Below the pieces are notes generated by a model that did no database searches, was not told the origin of the DNA, and saw only the letters and a program-made list of their open reading frames with translations. From a virus, in the IMG/VR virus record IMGVR_UViG_3300008448_000023, positions 1 through 64,000 of that record: a stretch of DNA of 64,000 bases. One strand, 5' to 3'. Both the position numbers and the translations under genes were made by a program. Position 1 is the stretch's first letter, and the number at the start of each line of letters is the position of its first letter. Of this stretch, positions 4,991 through 10,265 are shown in pieces.

Positions 4991-5002
4991 CAATATCAAA
5001 TC

Positions 5003-6073
5003 ATGACAACAAAAATCATTGCTTTTTTAACTGGAACAAATACTGGTTGCACATTTCTTGATTGGAGTGTGTTGTATTTGTCAGGGCAGACTGAGTTTTA
5101 TTCATTCTTAGACCAAGATTACATACCATTGACACATAATCCAGTGACTCCGCTCAATGCGCACGGACACAAGAAAAATCATCTATGTGGGTTTGATCGA
5201 AACTCCGAAGAAGTCAAAACATTTTTGAATCATTGTCAGGGGTTGTTGACCTTGTACCCTTGGACCTTGCGTTTTTCACAGGCTGCTGAACAAAACGGTA
5301 TAGACATAGAATCTTCAATTCTTACGCAAGATTTGATTGACAAGATTGAAGATTCCATGGCTCAGGATTTAAAAAAACTTTGGTTGTATTTGCATTCATT
5401 ACAAGCCAAAGTGGTGTACGTAGAAGACGATCCTAATCTGTCCTTGGCACATGTGGACCGTCGCAGTACTGAAGGTGGCATTAAAATGTTTAAGCCATCA
5501 ACTCTAGAAGAAATTGACAAAGAATATCAAGAAATATTTTATTCAGACAGTATAAAAGCCTGGCAAGATCTTGGACTAAACAACATCTGGGATGACAGAG
5601 AACGGCGTGCATTAGACTTTCGACATCACCTTGACTACACACAAGCTAGGCAGCATATGATGCCATTTGATCTACCTCATCTAAGAGTCAACACCTCTGA
5701 GCTTTGGACGCAAGGAGAATGGGTAATAAAACAGGTCATGGCTTTTTGTGAGCTTGAGATTGACCAATCTCGTTGGGAACACTGGACGGTTATGTATCAG
5801 CAATGGAAAGATAAACTGCAACAGAGAATATTATTCTGTTATAGATTACCAACAATATTGAAATCCATAGTTAATAATTGGTATTACGACATTGGTGAGC
5901 TGACATTCATGCAAGAAGTTGTAGTGCAACATCTGTTGATTTACAAACATCAGTTGAATCTCAAAACATGGGAATTGTCTAAATTTCCACGCAATGCACA
6001 AGACCTACACAAACTTCTGGAACCAAATATACATTCAGTGCCAGACATCTACAATATAAGATCTACTGCGTAG
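5003..6073 (+). CDS. Hypothetical protein, possibly sulfotransferase/P-loop-like fold
   Basis: 356-aa ORF. N-terminal FLTGTNTGCTFLDWS resembles a sulfotransferase PAPS-binding loop; otherwise unassigned. Confidence 0.4.
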   Translation: MTTKIIAFLTGTNTGCTFLDWSVLYLSGQTEFYSFLDQDYIPLTHNPVTPLNAHGHKKNHLCGFDRNSEEVKTFLNHCQGLLTLYPWTLRFSQAAEQNGIDIESSILTQDLIDKIEDSMAQDLKKLWLYLHSLQAKVVYVEDDPNLSLAHVDRRSTEGGIKMFKPSTLEEIDKEYQEIFYSDSIKAWQDLGLNNIWDDRERRALDFRHHLDYTQARQHMMPFDLPHLRVNTSELWTQGEWVIKQVMAFCELEIDQSRWEHWTVMYQQWKDKLQQRILFCYRLPTILKSIVNNWYYDIGELTFMQEVVVQHLLIYKHQLNLKTWELSKFPRNAQDLHKLLEPNIHSVPDIYNIRSTA

Positions 6074-6076
6074 ATC

Positions 6077-6505
6077 AGTTGTTTTCGCTATCGCTCAACA
6101 ACTATTTTATTTAAAGAGCGAAGCGATTAAGTATTCATCCAGATCCAATGGTCACACTTTGCCCGCACAGGGCAAAGAAACTTCATCCGAGTCGGGCAAG
6201 TCACTTAGCGTTACAGCATTGCAGAGGCGGTTGTCCGGTACCTCGAGCTGCGTCTTTATCACAACGGCGGTTTGTATCACATACGCTAACATGCATACAA
6301 ACGTGTACTATCACTAGTACGTCTTTTTCCCTTTTAAAATTCTGTTCAAACAATCAAACCGCAGGTGTTAAGCGATCGTGGTCCTGTCAAGGATACTGAT
6401 TGAGTGCTCGCTGGCGCGGCGAGGCTTCGGATCCCTGCGACACTGGGCCCAGGTTTCTACTGTTCGGCACACGAGGTTGACCTGTGCGAGTCCTAACTGC
6501 CTAGT
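6077..6505 (-). ncRNA. Candidate large structured non-coding RNA (or structured DNA element) downstream of the GIY-YIG gene
   Basis: The only long intergenic stretch in the window. Many perfect stems (6077-83/6097-103, 6157-64/6170-77, 6270-77/6295-302, 6305-10/6315-20 closing a GUGA GNRA loop on the minus strand, 6407-11/6419-23) and crossing pairings (6205-11/6283-89; 6351-56/6397-402 with 6360-65/6434-39). Confidence 0.6.
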
Positions 6506-6934
6506 TTAGATTTTGTTGATTATGTGACTGCCATGTACACGAACTTGGATGTGTCCGTTATACCAGTCTTTTGATTCTAGCACTCTGCGTGAAAATTGTT
6601 CTCTTGCTTCGATATAGCTGCACTCTGATTTGCTTTTACAGTAATAAAGTATTTCTCTTGTAAAATTGTCTTTGCCTAAAAGTTCTACATCCTTGGACAG
6701 TTCTGGTGAGCTACCGTAGTAGTCTCTCCAGTCTGAATCCACTTTGGTGCGAATCTTCTTTTTCTTTTTAGTGCCGTTCTTGAGTTTGACTGTACGTTGT
6801 GTGGTACGAGAGAATTTTGCTAGTTTTTTGCCTATGTATTTGCGTTGATTGGTGACGTTGGTTATAAGATACACAAAGCCTACGCAGTCTTCGGGTAGCT
6901 CCTCTACAAGTTGATTGTTGTAAAACCATGTCAT
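6506..6934 (-). CDS. Minimal GIY-YIG family endonuclease
   Basis: GFVYLITN...RKYIGKK motif, YYGSS, catalytic-type E (YIEAREQ) and YN. Very basic insertion KLKNGTKKKKKIR; no C-terminal DNA-binding domain. Confidence 0.8.
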   Translation of the reverse strand: MTWFYNNQLVEELPEDCVGFVYLITNVTNQRKYIGKKLAKFSRTTQRTVKLKNGTKKKKKIRTKVDSDWRDYYGSSPELSKDVELLGKDNFTREILYYCKSKSECSYIEAREQFSRRVLESKDWYNGHIQVRVHGSHIINKI

Positions 6935-6971
6935 CCATGTTAGTTATCTGCTGCCTGTCTAAATGTTATTT

Positions 6972-8735
6972 TTATGCCAAATCTACGTCAGTATTGTATT
7001 GTGTAAAGCCGTTTTCTTTGATCACTTTGAGAATGTTCTCAACACGACCAGCTAGTTCGTCTTTGTGACTCACAAGCCAGATACTCTTGTGGCGTTCGCG
7101 ACTCATCTTCTTCAACAAGCCCAGACCGTTTTCTACACCCTGTGTGTCCAGACCATTGTCCATGAGCTCGTCGATGAACAGCAAGTTGATGGGATGATAT
7201 AGGCTTTCCCAAACATCGCGGAATGCCCAGCTCATTGAAAGTATCAATCGGGTACGTTCGCCGCGACTCAAGTTATCAAAGTCCAGTTCTCGACCCAGTT
7301 CTTCAATGCTCACAGAAAGATCATTCTGGAACTTTACTGTGTGTGGAAGACCAATACGATCCAAGTAGTGTGTGAGACGTTGATTGAGATAGCTCAAGTT
7401 TTGGTCAATGATTTTCTTGCGCACAAAGCTGTCTTTTGATGTTAACAGTTTTAGCAAGAAGTCTTGATGCTCTTGCAGCCTGGTAAGATCATTCAGTGTA
7501 TCGTAGCTTACTGTCTGTAGAGCTTGGCCTTGCATGTCAGAAATTTGTTCGCCATACGGGTCTACCTCATTTTGACGAGTTTCTAGACTGTTTTTAAGTG
7601 TGCTCAAAGTATTGCGATGGTTTAGTGCATTTTCCAAGGTATCGTAGAACACAATGGGTGCTGTGCCCAACGGACCCAGTTTGGACAATGTGTCTTGATG
7701 TTCTTGCCTTTGAGTATCATTGGCCAGGAGTTGCAGTGCAATTTCCTGTAGGCTTTTTTCGCGATCAGCACGAACTTTGTCTAAACTGTTGTCGTGTATC
7801 TCTGTACCACAAGCAAAACACCGATGTTGTTGGATCTCTTTAAGATCTTTGTCTAGTTGTTGTTTTTGTTTTTGTAGCTTGATGTCGTCAGTGGCAATTT
7901 GTCGTATCCAAAGATTCAAGTCATCAATGGATTTTTTCTTGACGTGATAGGCGTCAAGATCACGATGGGCCTGGATTTCAACGTCAATGTTGATGTGTTC
8001 TAGGTCTGTGATAGCTTGTGCAAAATTTGCACAATCCTCAGTTTGTTTTTTCAACCAAAGTGTCTGGCGCTTGCGCAGGCTTTCTATCTGCTCTTCAATG
8101 CGCTTGTTGGCTTCTTGTACTGCACGAATGCGAAATTCTTCTTGCGAGATAGCATCCTTGGTTTGTCGATTTAACTCTTTGACACGATCTGCACGTTCGC
8201 TGAGTTGCGTAATACCCAACAACTGTTCAATGATGATTCTTTGTTCATTGGCTTTCAGACTCAGGAACGGTTCGGTATAAGTGTTCAGAGCCAGTACATG
8301 TTTAAACATGTCATGACTCATACCTAGTATATGCTCAATAGCATCCTGCGTTTCTCTGCTGTCACCTTGTGCTTCATCAGTAGCAGACTGTTCTTCGTTG
8401 TTGACGTAAAACTTCAGCACATTGGGTTTGCGTCCACGTTCAATCTTGTATTCTTTGCTGCCAACTGAAAAATCCAAACTCACCAACATGTGTTTAGCAT
8501 TGGTCTTGTTCACAAGATTGTCCTTGCGAATGTTTGACAGTGCATTGCCATACAAGGCATAGCTCAGTGCATTGATGATGGTGGTCTTACCAGTGCCGTT
8601 GCGACTGCCATCGCCACCTAGGTCAAGGTTCTCGCCTAGTACTAGAGTAAGGTCTCTGCGGTCAAAGTCAATGCCTTGTGTGGCATTGCCCACACTCATA
8701 AAGTTTTTTACAGTTAAATTTTTAAAACGAATCAA
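6972..8735 (-). CDS. gp46: Recombination endonuclease ATPase subunit (gp46/SbcC/Rad50-like)
   Basis: Walker A NGTGKTT, coiled coil with CFAC zinc hook, signature LSRGE, Walker B LLFIDE, H-loop VSH. Confidence 0.95.
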   Translation of the reverse strand: MIRFKNLTVKNFMSVGNATQGIDFDRRDLTLVLGENLDLGGDGSRNGTGKTTIINALSYALYGNALSNIRKDNLVNKTNAKHMLVSLDFSVGSKEYKIERGRKPNVLKFYVNNEEQSATDEAQGDSRETQDAIEHILGMSHDMFKHVLALNTYTEPFLSLKANEQRIIIEQLLGITQLSERADRVKELNRQTKDAISQEEFRIRAVQEANKRIEEQIESLRKRQTLWLKKQTEDCANFAQAITDLEHINIDVEIQAHRDLDAYHVKKKSIDDLNLWIRQIATDDIKLQKQKQQLDKDLKEIQQHRCFACGTEIHDNSLDKVRADREKSLQEIALQLLANDTQRQEHQDTLSKLGPLGTAPIVFYDTLENALNHRNTLSTLKNSLETRQNEVDPYGEQISDMQGQALQTVSYDTLNDLTRLQEHQDFLLKLLTSKDSFVRKKIIDQNLSYLNQRLTHYLDRIGLPHTVKFQNDLSVSIEELGRELDFDNLSRGERTRLILSMSWAFRDVWESLYHPINLLFIDELMDNGLDTQGVENGLGLLKKMSRERHKSIWLVSHKDELAGRVENILKVIKENGFTQYNTDVDLA

Positions 8736-8757
8736 TATCTACTCCGCAATAGTACAT

Positions 8758-8786
8758 AGTGTAGCAATTTTTAAGAAGTTAAGCAA
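8758..8786 (-). promoter_or_regulatory. Sigma70-like promoter for gp46
   Basis: TTGCTT-17 nt-TACACT with a TGn extension; GGAG RBS before the TTG start. Confidence 0.55.
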
Positions 8787-8795
8787 GTTTTTCGA

Positions 8796-10265
8796 TCATT
8801 TGCACTGTCTAAAATACCGCATCAATTTTTGTCTATCAATTTTTCTACTTACAGTGTACTCGATTGGATTAAGATGCCTGGCAATTTTGTTAACCTTGAC
8901 ATGGTCAAAATGCCTGTCAAGGTACTGCAAAAACTCATGCTCGGCAGATTGACTTGGCGCCCATACGCTGAGATACAACTGTTGTTCTTCGTTGTCGATT
9001 ACAACTGTAGCTCCGTCTACGCCAAACAAATCATGAACCATCTTGTCAATGTCACCAAGATTTATCCACTCGTCACCAATTCTGAAATTAGTACCGCGGC
9101 CGTAAAAATAATAGTCGTTGTTTATTTTTTCAAATTTATCTGAACTGGTCTTCCACTGAGTTTCTCCTAGACCAAGAGCTCTAACATAGAGAAAACCGTC
9201 AATGATATCAAATTCAAAAAAATCATCTAGCTGTGGCCCAATGCGATTGGTAATATATTTGTCAGGATCAGTGTCTTGGTCAACGACCTTGACCAAAAAT
9301 CCATATCCAATGGTAGTATCACCAAATACATTTCGAATTGATGCAATATTTTTTTCTTGCATGAGTCGAACACATTGTTCGTTGACATAGAACAACGTAA
9401 CAATATCCAAATTAAAATCAATCTTTGGAGTCTGTTCTAAGAAATTGATTAGTTTTTCTGAGCTATAGAGTAAGATTTTGTTGATCTGATGGTCAGTCAC
9501 ATATTTGCACAAATTTTTGTAGTAATTTGAATCAGGATAATGGTTAAACACGTAGTGGTTTTTGCTTGTTATAAAACTAGGCAAAAAGTGATAACACATA
9601 CTAGCACCGTGATGTAAATTATTGGTATGTAAAGTGTTTTCGTTGGGTTGAAAATTCAAATGTTTACACAGTCGCAGAGTTTGCAAAACAATTTCCTGAT
9701 GAGTAATTTTGATTTGTCGCGGCAATCCAGTGGTCCCGCCTGTGGCAGTCCACACAGCATCTACATCGGGAGTTGCAAACGCAGTATTGAGTATTCTCGA
9801 TACTAGACTATGATTTTGAATTTGATAGTTGTCAAAGTCTTGTTCAGTTATTATGACATTGCAATTGAGTCGATTCCGTTCGTGATCCCAGAAAGAATAG
9901 AAATCTTTGTCGTTGGGATCAGTTTGTCTGCTGTAAACTATGGCAAAATCAACTTTACCGTGCATGGTCATTCTATGACTAGTTGCATCTTCCAAACTGT
10001 AAGCATGCGGCCAATCTACAATCATGATCATGCCTAATTCCCACACAGCAAAAACTGCACTATAGTAGTATGCGTTGGTGAGATTAAATTCTAACATCAC
10101 TGTCTGCCCTGGCCGAGCCTTGTATTTTTCTACCAGCAGTATTTTCCAGTAGTCAATCATCTCACAGAATTCATCTCTGTCGATTTGAAAAATTTCTCCT
10201 GTGTTTAGATTTTCTTGGTGCAGAACAAAGTCTGCAGATATTAGATTCCTCGAAAGAATGTTCAT
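8796..10265 (-). CDS. Adenylate-forming (ANL/AMP-binding) enzyme, acyl-CoA synthetase-like
   Basis: P-loop TATGGTTGLPR (cf. TSGTTGxPK), FGDTT, WKTSSD, YFYGRG hinge, C-terminal RKIDR lysine motif. Confidence 0.75.
   Translation of the reverse strand: MNILSRNLISADFVLHQENLNTGEIFQIDRDEFCEMIDYWKILLVEKYKARPGQTVMLEFNLTNAYYYSAVFAVWELGMIMIVDWPHAYSLEDATSHRMTMHGKVDFAIVYSRQTDPNDKDFYSFWDHERNRLNCNVIITEQDFDNYQIQNHSLVSRILNTAFATPDVDAVWTATGGTTGLPRQIKITHQEIVLQTLRLCKHLNFQPNENTLHTNNLHHGASMCYHFLPSFITSKNHYVFNHYPDSNYYKNLCKYVTDHQINKILLYSSEKLINFLEQTPKIDFNLDIVTLFYVNEQCVRLMQEKNIASIRNVFGDTTIGYGFLVKVVDQDTDPDKYITNRIGPQLDDFFEFDIIDGFLYVRALGLGETQWKTSSDKFEKINNDYYFYGRGTNFRIGDEWINLGDIDKMVHDLFGVDGATVVIDNEEQQLYLSVWAPSQSAEHEFLQYLDRHFDHVKVNKIARHLNPIEYTVSRKIDRQKLMRYFRQCK

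What the first reader, a model, noticed from the sequence alone, without database searches (positions are those of the whole stretch)
6077..6934. Minimal GIY-YIG nuclease followed directly by a ~430-nt pseudoknotted non-coding element: candidate RNA-associated nuclease system
Seen: genes in this window almost all overlap or abut, and this is the only long gap. It begins at the GIY-YIG stop codon and is dense in complementary segments. Hairpins: 6157-64/6170-77, 6224-30/6235-44, 6270-77/6295-302, 6305-10/6315-20, 6382-85/6390-93, 6407-11/6419-23, 6467-76/6481-87. Two crossing pairings: the loop ACGCTAA (6283-89) with TTAGCGT (6205-11), and CAATCA/TGATTG (6351-56/6397-402) crossing CGCAGG/CCTGCG (6360-65/6434-39). 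One stem closes a GUGA GNRA tetraloop only on the minus strand, the same strand as the nuclease. The 142-aa protein has only the catalytic domain plus a very basic insertion. Known: Seg-type homing GIY-YIGs carry separate DNA-binding domains, and compact nucleases such as IscB and TnpB get specificity from an adjacent structured RNA. Inference: the RNA may be a scaffold or guide for this nuclease, or a new large phage ncRNA or ribozyme. I could not match it by eye to tRNA, tmRNA, RNase P or group I intron cores.
Basis: partly seen in the sequence, partly recalled or inferred. Interest (0 to 1): 0.9.

Follow-up and report, generated by a model that had tools for sequence, protein, structure and literature searches.

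The report
Full-length Polynucleobacter-1 twin-box phage RNA
The gene-free stretch behind a small nuclease gene of this uncultured giant freshwater T4-like phage encodes a real, about 450-base, multiply knotted non-coding RNA; its first third is an orphan motif catalogued in 2010, its function is unknown, and it does not look like the nuclease's guide.

Summary
Window 6054-6505, minus strand, is a conserved structured RNA. Positions 6348-6492 match Rfam RF01718 (Polynucleobacter-1) at 79.1 bits against a cut-off of 37.

On 34 distinct homologues, a curated fold of 19 helices, including three well-supported pseudoknots and a weaker fourth, is 91% paired. Shifted controls are 36-42% paired. Single-sequence folding energy is not significant.

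The 3' part carries one 7-letter word twice (GGAUGAA here). The two copies are identical in 52 of 53 distinct relatives, across 9 different words. I found no complementary partner.

The guide or scaffold reading is not supported:
- The nuclease is 73-91% conserved, also in related phages that lack the RNA.
- Its cultured-phage relatives have no such RNA.
- Four RNA-bearing phage contigs carry an unrelated PD-(D/E)XK nuclease in that slot.
- 18 of 151 Polynucleobacter genomes carry the RNA. All 12 islands examined have no GIY-YIG within 10 kb.

Weinberg et al. 2010 already reported this RNA downstream of this gene family, and their supplement shows the central stems and one pseudoknot.

This scan has found the same RNA family at least ten times on other DNA. 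It is an extended form of a known orphan RNA, and its function is unknown.

The parts
6506..6934 (-). 142-aa single-domain GIY-YIG endonuclease gene (SegE_GIY-YIG type, phrog_447). It is the upstream neighbour, not shown to be part of the RNA's function.
   Evidence: Pfam PF19835 at 1.4e-33; phrog_447 at 5e-38; AlphaFold model pLDDT 79.5, with the I-TevI catalytic domain as best PDB fold; 73-91% identical in 80 viral contigs
6054..6505 (-). Whole RNA element: full-length Polynucleobacter-1 / twin-box RNA, about 450 nt. It starts at the stop codon of the GIY-YIG gene and runs to the U-rich tail after hairpin T2. The ends are inferred from conservation, not mapped.
   Evidence: nhmmer finds the element in 68 of 80 homologous loci, full length in 44; alignment A1; 100 pairs, 91.4% paired, 71 with compensatory change
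6348..6492 (-). 5' domain = Rfam RF01718 Polynucleobacter-1 (helices P1-P6, plus PK0 6490-92 with 6479-81)
   Evidence: cmscan 79.1 bits, cut-off 37, E 8.7e-17, model positions 1-141; helices 1-7
6205..6320 (-). Central domain. P7 (6316-20/6305-09, GUGA loop). P8 (6291-6302/6270-82). PK1: P8 loop UUAGCGU 6283-89 with ACGCUAA 6205-11. PK2: GUUGU 6261-65 with hairpin loop ACAAC 6230-34. P10 (6247-51/6213-17). P10a (6241-44/6224-27).
   Evidence: PK1 98.7% paired, PK2 99.4%, P10 with 5 of 5 pairs changed on both sides; coordinates; P7, P8, P10 and PK1 are already in the Weinberg 2010 supplement
6134..6204 (-). Twin-box domain. GUGAC 6200-04, then CUC+GGAUGAA 6182-91, then hairpin P11 (6170-77/6157-64), then GUGAC 6151-55, then UCU+GGAUGAA 6134-43.
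   Evidence: The two 7-mers are identical in 52 of 53 distinct domains across 9 words, while CUC and UCU always differ. This is the most widely retained module in variant RNAs.
6078..6126 (-). 3' hairpin T1 (6097-6102/6078-83) with conserved loop GAGCGAUAGCGA 6085-96. The loop may pair with UCGCUUCGCUC 6116-26 (PK3, weaker support).
   Evidence: T1 stem covaries; PK3 is 81% paired with few double changes. The loop GAGCGAnAGCGAA is shared with the Polynucleobacter island copies.
6054..6076 (-). Hairpin T2 plus UUAUAU tail: probable intrinsic terminator of the RNA. It overlaps the stop codon of the convergent + strand gene 5003-6073.
   Evidence: Terminator scan, both strands; all 7 pairs covary, 97.8% paired

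Best explanation
The gap is a gene for an autonomous structured non-coding RNA. It is the full-length form of the orphan Polynucleobacter-1 RNA.

Shown:
- It is read from the minus strand.
- It has a 5' domain (RF01718), a central domain locked by two pseudoknots, a twin-box domain, and two 3' hairpins, the last of which looks like a terminator.

Inferred:
- In the phage it is made as the 3' end of the gp46-GIY-YIG transcript, or from a promoter inside that gene. In the Polynucleobacter islands it is its own transcription unit.
- It acts in trans as a folded RNA or RNA-protein particle.
- Its two identical 7-letter boxes are each read by the same partner. That partner could be a two-fold (dimeric) factor, a direct box-to-box contact, or contacts between copies of the RNA.

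The neighbouring GIY-YIG enzyme is a conserved stand-alone DNA endonuclease that works without this RNA. Their adjacency is inherited gene order in one phage lineage. The cellular task of the RNA remains unknown.
For: Family and strand:
- RF01718 at 79.1 bits on the minus strand.
- Many G-U pairs that would be A-C on the other strand.

Structure:
- 19 helices, 91.4% paired against 36-42% when slid, 71 of 100 pairs with double changes, 0 of 500 shuffles as good.

Conservation:
- 44 of 80 records that encode a close homologue of the nuclease hold one RF01718 copy.
- The 3' modules persist in 24 more of these loci, which have other 5' domains or are cut off by the contig end.

Autonomy:
- 18 of 151 Polynucleobacter genomes carry it, 1-2 copies each.
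- In 12 of 12 chromosomal contexts there is no GIY-YIG within 10 kb.
- All 12 have a divergent DUF6641 gene and a 188-aa tyrosine recombinase. The two islands annotated further (L219, L226) also hold an AAA+ ATPase and a 424-aa integrase.

The nuclease without the RNA:
- Melnitz (51% identical), ACP17, S-SRM01 and phiM12 have no RF01718 and no long gap.
- A group of about 160-kb phages keeps the protein at 73-77% identity, directly followed by another ORF.

The RNA without the nuclease in phages:
- 4 of 79 RNA-first loci have a PD-(D/E)XK gene (PF24608) in the slot.
- The 89.5-kb contig among them has no PF19835, and the positive controls ring.

Twin boxes under selection for identity:
- 52 of 53 identical across 9 words, with the CUC/UCU difference kept between identical flanks. 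That argues against gene conversion.
Against: - No transcript evidence. No RNA sequencing run holding this stretch was listed, so expression, ends and processing are inferred only.
- In phages the synteny is strong: 74 of 79 RNA-first loci have the GIY-YIG gene upstream on the same strand. The alternative occupant of the slot is again a small nuclease. A functional tie to 'some nuclease' is therefore not excluded.
- The phage contigs are mostly fragments, so 'no GIY-YIG' in them is not proof of absence from the genome.
Confidence: 0.75

Rival explanations
1. RNA-associated nuclease system: the RNA is a scaffold or guide that gives the domain-poor GIY-YIG enzyme its target specificity, as omega RNAs do for IscB and TnpB.
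For: - The gene and the RNA abut on one strand in 66 of 79 RNA-first phage loci.
- The protein has no separate DNA-binding domain.
- The RNA holds two short words that change between phages.
Against: - Each occurs widely without the other.
- ORFs of 238-337 aa are inserted between them in L018, L022, L029, L050 and L056.
- The protein is as conserved in RNA-less phages as in RNA-bearing ones.
- The words are only 7 nt, internal and duplicated, not a variable terminal guide.
- No complementary site lies within 6 kb at any consistent place, and the word is not enriched in the 94-kb record.
- The nuclease fold differs from every known RNA-guided nuclease.
Confidence: 0.04
2. Selfish-gene adjacency: the small nuclease genes next to the RNA are, or descend from, free-standing homing endonucleases. 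Their cleavage site would lie in the very conserved RNA gene, so the link would be genetic (co-conversion), not biochemical.
For: - Two unrelated nuclease folds (GIY-YIG PF19835, PD-(D/E)XK PF24608) alternate in the same slot just 5' of the RNA.
- Other ORFs come and go there.
- The protein's more distant PHROG matches are homing endonuclease families.
- From my own knowledge, T4 seg genes sit beside conserved genes, for example segB in the tRNA cluster.
Against: - The GIY-YIG gene is near-universal and 73-91% conserved in this lineage, and present in 510 cultured-phage records. That is unlike sporadic, fast-decaying homing genes.
- It lacks the DNA-binding domain of Seg enzymes.
- It sits at other genome positions without the RNA in cyanophages and Melnitz.
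Confidence: 0.1
3. Replication- or recombination-linked RNA: the transcript primes or marks DNA synthesis (an R-loop or origin RNA in the manner of ColE1 RNA II or the T4 origin transcripts), or recruits phage DNA-handling proteins. The Polynucleobacter islands would carry a copy so that an infecting phage replicates them.
For: - In phages the RNA lies beside recombination nuclease genes: gp46 is an SbcC-like AAA protein.
- The two islands annotated further hold an AAA+ clamp-loader-like ATPase and two tyrosine recombinases near the RNA.
- There is one copy per phage record.
- An earlier report of this scan raised the same idea.
Against: - Nothing here tests it.
- A priming RNA needs no such elaborate covarying fold with four pseudoknots.
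- No DUF6641 or integrase is found in the complete 347-kb phage, so the island proteins are not shared partners.
- That the islands are phage satellites is itself unproven.
Confidence: 0.08
4. RNA-only assembly: like the phage-associated ornate RNAs GOLLD and ROOL, the RNA forms symmetric multimers. The two identical boxes would make like-with-like contacts, either box to box within one molecule or between protomers.
For: - Strict identity of the boxes, including G versus A: position 1 is GG 32, AA 20, GA 1, and position 5 is AA 31, GG 22 with none mixed.
- A Watson-Crick reader carrying U would tolerate G/A mixtures, which are almost never seen.
- No complementary partner exists in the RNA or nearby.
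- GOLLD, ROOL and OLE were shown to self-assemble (bioRxiv 10.1101/2024.12.08.627333, found).
Against: - This is pure inference.
- The pyrimidine triplets before the boxes always differ (CUC against UCU), which a simple like-with-like duplex does not explain.
- A dimeric protein explains the identity equally well.
Confidence: 0.07
5. Cis-acting 3' untranslated region: the structure only stabilises or terminates the gp46-GIY-YIG mRNA.
For: - It starts at the stop codon.
- It ends in a terminator-like hairpin at a convergent gene junction.
Against: - In Polynucleobacter it stands alone, divergent from its neighbour gene, behind a conserved upstream stretch that I read as promoter-like by eye.
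- About 450 nt with four pseudoknots and sequence-constrained boxes is far more than an mRNA end needs.
- It is kept when the upstream gene is exchanged.
Confidence: 0.04

Closest known systems
Polynucleobacter-1 RNA motif (Rfam RF01718; Weinberg et al. 2010, Genome Biol 11:R31, PMC2864571)
   Same: - Window 6348-6492 matches the whole 141-position model at twice the gathering score.
- The strand and helices are the same.
- The position downstream of the GOS11034 / PSSM2_218 gene family is the same.
- The authors' raw alignment already contains P7, P8, P10 and pseudoknot PK1 as a 'tail'.
   Different: - The Rfam model stops after 141 positions.
- PK0, PK2, the twin-box domain, the T1 hairpin with its conserved loop and the T2 terminator are not marked in the consensus structure lines read in that supplement.
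- In 2010 no copy was known from a purified phage. Here it lies in a T4-like phage record estimated at about 350 kb, and in hundreds of viral contigs.
GOLLD and ROOL (large ornate RNAs, often in phages or prophages, shown to self-assemble)
   Same: - It is a large, multi-pseudoknotted orphan RNA.
- It was found through lake metagenomes.
- It is carried by phages and by mobile islands.
- It has no protein partner known.
   Different: - There is no Rfam match to either family at E up to 10.
- It is smaller.
- There are no tRNA genes in the window.
- Multimerisation is untested.
IscB/TnpB omega RNAs (including the former HEARO motif)
   Same: A structured RNA of a few hundred nucleotides lies next to a compact nuclease gene.
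   Different: - The nuclease fold is different (GIY-YIG, not RuvC/HNH).
- There are no transposon ends.
- There is no variable terminal guide.
- RNA and nuclease are separable in nature.
T4 Seg-type GIY-YIG homing endonucleases and I-TevI
   Same: - The catalytic fold and the SegE-type HMM match.
- It is a T4-like phage gene.
   Different: - There is no DNA-binding domain.
- The family is highly conserved and near-universal in its lineage (phrog_447, widely mislabelled 'NAD synthetase').

Membership tests
Rfam RF01718 Polynucleobacter-1 | Covariance-model score at or above the gathering score (37 bits), over the full model | tested here: met
   79.1 bits, E 8.7e-17, model 1-141, window 6348-6492 minus strand
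Rfam RF01718 Polynucleobacter-1 | Helices P1-P6 kept by compensatory change in relatives | tested here: met
   Helices 2-7 are 81-99% paired, and each has at least one pair changed on both sides
Rfam RF01718 Polynucleobacter-1 | Usual position downstream of a GOS11034 / PSSM2_218-like gene (Weinberg 2010 supplement) | tested here: met
   The window ORF is 37% identical to PSSM2_218, E 5e-20
GIY-YIG nuclease superfamily, SegE_GIY-YIG (PF19835) | HMM match above cut-off and a GIY-YIG fold with its conserved motif residues | tested here: met
   116 bits against a cut-off of 25. Residues I read as the motif residues are invariant in 25 homologues: Y22 in GFVY, Y33 and G35 in KYIG, E109, N126. The I-TevI catalytic domain is the top fold match. 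Catalysis was not assayed.
Seg-type free-standing homing endonucleases | C-terminal DNA-binding domain, and sporadic distribution among related phages | tested here: not met
   The protein is 142 aa and the HMM covers residues 3-129. More than 575 close relatives, 73-91% identical among the 80 kept.
RNA-guided nucleases of the OMEGA type (IscB, TnpB) | RuvC-type nuclease, an RNA with a variable guide at one end, and obligatory co-occurrence within a transposon | tested here: not met
   The fold is GIY-YIG. The variable words are internal, duplicated 7-mers. RNA and nuclease occur apart.
Group I intron carrying a GIY-YIG gene | Group I ribozyme core and an interrupted host gene | tested here: not met
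   No Rfam intron family matches at E up to 10. The flanks are a complete gp46-like gene and a convergent gene, so there are no split exons.
Box C/D (kink-turn) guide RNAs | RUGAUGA and CUGA boxes paired as kink-turns, with guides next to D boxes | tested here: inconclusive
   The phage words contain GAUGA or GAUAA and there is a GUGAC nearby. The island copies use AGCGAAA, AUCAAAA or AGAGAAA with GUGUAG. A C391-R463 closing pair is not kept (by eye on A1).
GOLLD / ROOL | Match to their covariance models | tested here: not met
   No match in window 5800-7200 at E up to 10, nor in the whole window at gathering score

The most novel reading that the evidence does not exclude
The two always-identical 7-letter boxes are not read by base-pairing with a complementary strand. 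Instead they contact each other like-with-like (G with G, A with A), either within one molecule or between copies. That would make this a natural RNA built around a parallel homo-paired element, or a self-assembling RNA particle of giant phages and their host's mobile islands.
Probability: 0.06. Interest if true: 0.85.

Novelty: new variant of a known kind. Interest (0 to 1): 0.5.

Why it matters
Large, intricately knotted orphan RNAs are rare, and past examples have turned out to be ribozymes, guides or self-assembling particles. This one is common in uncultured giant freshwater phages. It is also present in mobile islands of a culturable bacterium, Polynucleobacter asymbioticus QLW-P1DMWA-1, which makes its function testable. 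The twin boxes, which must stay identical, are a sharply defined and unexplained constraint.

For annotation:
- The Rfam model covers only a third of the RNA.
- The neighbouring gene family, labelled 'NAD synthetase' in many phage records, is a GIY-YIG nuclease.

The attractive idea of an RNA-guided GIY-YIG nuclease can be set aside on present evidence.

Tried and rejected
- blastn of the gap against cultured phages: no match.
- tRNA and tmRNA scan: none in the window.
- Sequencing runs: no RNA holder was listed for window 5000-9000, only DNA metagenomes. Expression could not be examined and read laying was not used.
- Partner of the boxes:
  - No Watson-Crick covarying column in the 622-column alignment.
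  - Neither the word nor its complement is enriched in the 94-kb record.
  - No complement at any consistent place within 6 kb in 48 loci.
  - In the islands, no word or complement at a consistent site within 10 kb, which argues against an att-core reading.
- A helix between the two spacers before the boxes: up to 8 bp in one clade but 2 bp in others, and cognate pairs are no better than non-cognate ones (4.6 against 4.0).
- Kink-turn pairing of GUGAC with the boxes: not kept (by eye).
- DUF6641 as a shared protein partner:
  - Absent from the complete 347-kb phage and from four large contigs (where no control genome rang).
  - No relatives in viral contigs.
  - The fold searches gave only weak helical matches.
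  - No paper mentions it.
- Tyrosine recombinase in the phages: none.
- The genome contigs pattern scan gave mostly chance hits, and only 2 Polynucleobacter loci were useful.
- PDB sequence search with the nuclease: nothing significant, and no T4 endonuclease II match.
- The boxA-like GCUCUUUAA at 6111-6119 is confined to the window's clade, so it is probably chance.

Full report
WHAT IS THERE

The window comes from a 94,412-bp IMG/VR virus record that CheckV rates at 27% complete, which implies a genome of about 350 kb. A related record of 346,856 bp has terminal repeats and is rated complete.

On the minus strand lie a gp46-like SbcC/AAA gene (6972-8735) and a 142-aa ORF (6506-6934). Then comes a gene-free stretch that runs up to a convergent + strand gene (5003-6073).

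The 142-aa protein is a SegE-type GIY-YIG domain:
- PF19835 at 1.4e-33, covering residues 3-129.
- phrog_447.
- Its AlphaFold model has pLDDT 79.5, and the best PDB fold match is the I-TevI catalytic domain, 1mk0.

THE RNA IS A KNOWN FAMILY, EXTENDED

An Rfam scan places RF01718 (Polynucleobacter-1) at 6348-6492 on the minus strand. The score is 79.1 bits against a gathering score of 37, E 8.7e-17, over the full model. It is the only Rfam hit in the 64-kb window.

Weinberg et al. 2010 (PMC2864571) say that the motif is mostly downstream of genes of family GOS11034, which resemble PSSM2_218 of cyanophage P-SSM2. They also say that no purified phage carried it. PSSM2_218 is a 145-aa homologue of the window protein, 37% identical, E 5e-20. 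The gene-RNA adjacency was therefore published in 2010.

Their raw alignment marks an 'actual motif' longer than the 'search motif' that became the Rfam model. It already includes the stems I call P7, P8 and P10, and the pseudoknot between the P8 loop and a downstream ACGCUAA.

STRUCTURE

I collected 80 viral contigs that encode close relatives of the nuclease (73-91% identity).
- RF01718 is present once in 44 of them.
- An iterated nhmmer profile finds the whole element of about 413 nt right after the stop codon in those 44.
- The profile finds only the 3' modules in 24 more. Most of these have other 5' domains, and a few are cut off by the contig end.

On 34 distinct full-length copies (alignment A1) I curated 100 pairs in 19 helices. 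The counts are:
- 91.4% of cells are paired, against 36-42% when the partners are slid.
- 71 pairs show changes on both sides.
- None of 500 shuffles is as good.

The pseudoknots, with window coordinates:
- PK0: 6490-92 with 6479-81.
- PK1: 6283-89 with 6205-11, 98.7% paired.
- PK2: 6261-65 with 6230-34, 99.4% paired.
- PK3, weaker: 6116-26 with 6085-96, 81% paired.

Frequent G-U pairs fix the minus strand as the sense strand.

The 3' hairpins T1 and T2 belong to the element. The T1 loop GAGCGAnAGCGAA recurs in the bacterial copies. T2 plus its U-rich tail scores as a terminator and overlaps the convergent gene's stop codon.

Single-sequence folding energy is unremarkable, z = -1.4.

The CGCAGG/CCTGCG crossing pair does not (64% paired).

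TWIN BOXES

Between PK1 and the 3' hairpins lie two similar modules: GUGAC, a spacer of about 8 nt, A, a pyrimidine triplet, and then a 7-letter word. They are separated by hairpin P11.

In the window the words are CUC-GGAUGAA (6182-91) and UCU-GGAUGAA (6134-43). Across 53 distinct sequences:
- The two 7-mers are identical in 52.
- Nine different words occur.
- The triplets stay CUC and UCU.
- The eighth position is not matched.

The island copies use other words (AGCGAAA, AUCAAAA, AGAGAAA, AGCAAAA), and these are again mostly twinned.

I found no complementary partner in the RNA, in 6-kb flanks, in the 94-kb record or in the islands.

G and A almost never mix between the two boxes. A pairing partner that carries U would tolerate such mixtures. 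This points to a reader that tells G from A. That could be a two-fold protein, or the boxes contacting each other.

This feature was reported by earlier follow-ups of this scan on other genomes. I reproduced it independently here.

IS IT THE NUCLEASE'S RNA?

An RNA-first pattern scan of viral contigs gave 79 usable loci:
- 66 have the GIY-YIG gene directly upstream.
- 8 have it 240-970 nt away.
- 4 have an unrelated PD-(D/E)XK endonuclease (PF24608) in its place.
- 1 is a chance match.

The synteny is therefore strong in this phage lineage. Four lines of evidence show it is not obligatory.
1. Cultured-phage homologues (Melnitz at 51% identity, ACP17, S-SRM01, phiM12, P-SSM2) have neither RF01718 nor a long gap. 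A group of about 160-kb uncultured phages keeps the protein at 73-77% identity, with an ORF overlapping its stop codon.
2. ORFs of 238-337 aa separate gene and RNA in several contigs.
3. An 89.5-kb RNA-bearing contig has no PF19835, while the control records do.
4. 18 of 151 Polynucleobacter species genomes carry the RNA. In 12 of 12 chromosomal contexts there is no GIY-YIG within 10 kb.
   - All 12 have a divergent DUF6641 gene and a 188-aa tyrosine recombinase next to the RNA.
   - The two islands annotated further (L219, L226) also hold an AAA+ clamp-loader-like ATPase and a 424-aa integrase.
   - L219 lies beside repeats that I read by eye as tRNA 3' ends.
   - None of these island proteins is found in the complete phage genome.

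The nuclease is thus a conserved enzyme with a life of its own, and the RNA is an autonomous gene.

VERDICT

The stretch is a real, multiply pseudoknotted RNA of about 450 nt. It is the full-length form of an orphan family catalogued in 2010.

New relative to the literature:
- PK0 and PK2.
- The twin-box domain and its identity rule.
- The conserved 3' hairpins.
- Its home in giant T4-like phages.

None of this is new to this scan, which has reported the family repeatedly.

The RNA-guided-nuclease reading gets about 4%. The function remains unknown. I commit to a trans-acting folded RNA, or RNA-protein particle, whose twin boxes are read twice by one kind of partner. The replication-linked, homing-adjacency and self-assembly readings are minority options.

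Noticed in passing
L219:8900-16200 (Polynucleobacter genome G118) and L220-L230: All 12 Polynucleobacter contexts share DUF6641 (divergent), the RNA and a 188-aa tyrosine recombinase. In L219 and L226 the shared stretch of about 7 kb also holds two unknown ORFs, an AAA+ clamp-loader-like ATPase and a 424-aa integrase. L219 lies beside repeats that look like tRNA 3' ends. This may be a small integrative element, possibly a phage satellite.
   Followed up: partly
L245, L249, L280, L282 (viral contigs): In four RNA-bearing phage contigs a 173-188-aa PD-(D/E)XK endonuclease (PF24608; phrog_244 'RusA-like resolvase') replaces the GIY-YIG gene between gp46 and the RNA. A non-homologous small nuclease occupies the same slot.
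   Followed up: partly
L018:3429-4226, L022:3426-4199, L029:3440-4453, L050:3436-4152, L056:3429-4217: Unrelated ORFs of 238-337 aa with no family match are inserted between the GIY-YIG stop codon and the RNA in some relatives. The junction is a hot spot for gene insertion.
   Followed up: partly
window 5003-6073 (+): The convergent 356-aa gene has no Pfam or PHROG match. Its stop codon lies inside hairpin T2 of the RNA, so the two transcripts overlap tail to tail by about 20 bases.
   Followed up: no
window 6111-6119 (-): GCUCUUUAA matches, from my memory of it, the core of the ribosomal boxA antitermination signal. It is found only in the window's own clade of the RNA, so it is probably chance.
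   Followed up: partly
L041, L031, L033, L027 and others (viral contigs): Many relatives, among them the complete 347-kb genome, keep a gap of about 400 nt and the 3' modules of the RNA, but with a 5' domain that RF01718 does not detect. This is a sister variant of the RNA.
   Followed up: partly
L351:26712-27149 (P-SSM2 PSSM2_218) and many cultured-phage records: This GIY-YIG family (phrog_447) is widely annotated as 'NAD synthetase'. That label looks like a propagated error.
   Followed up: partly
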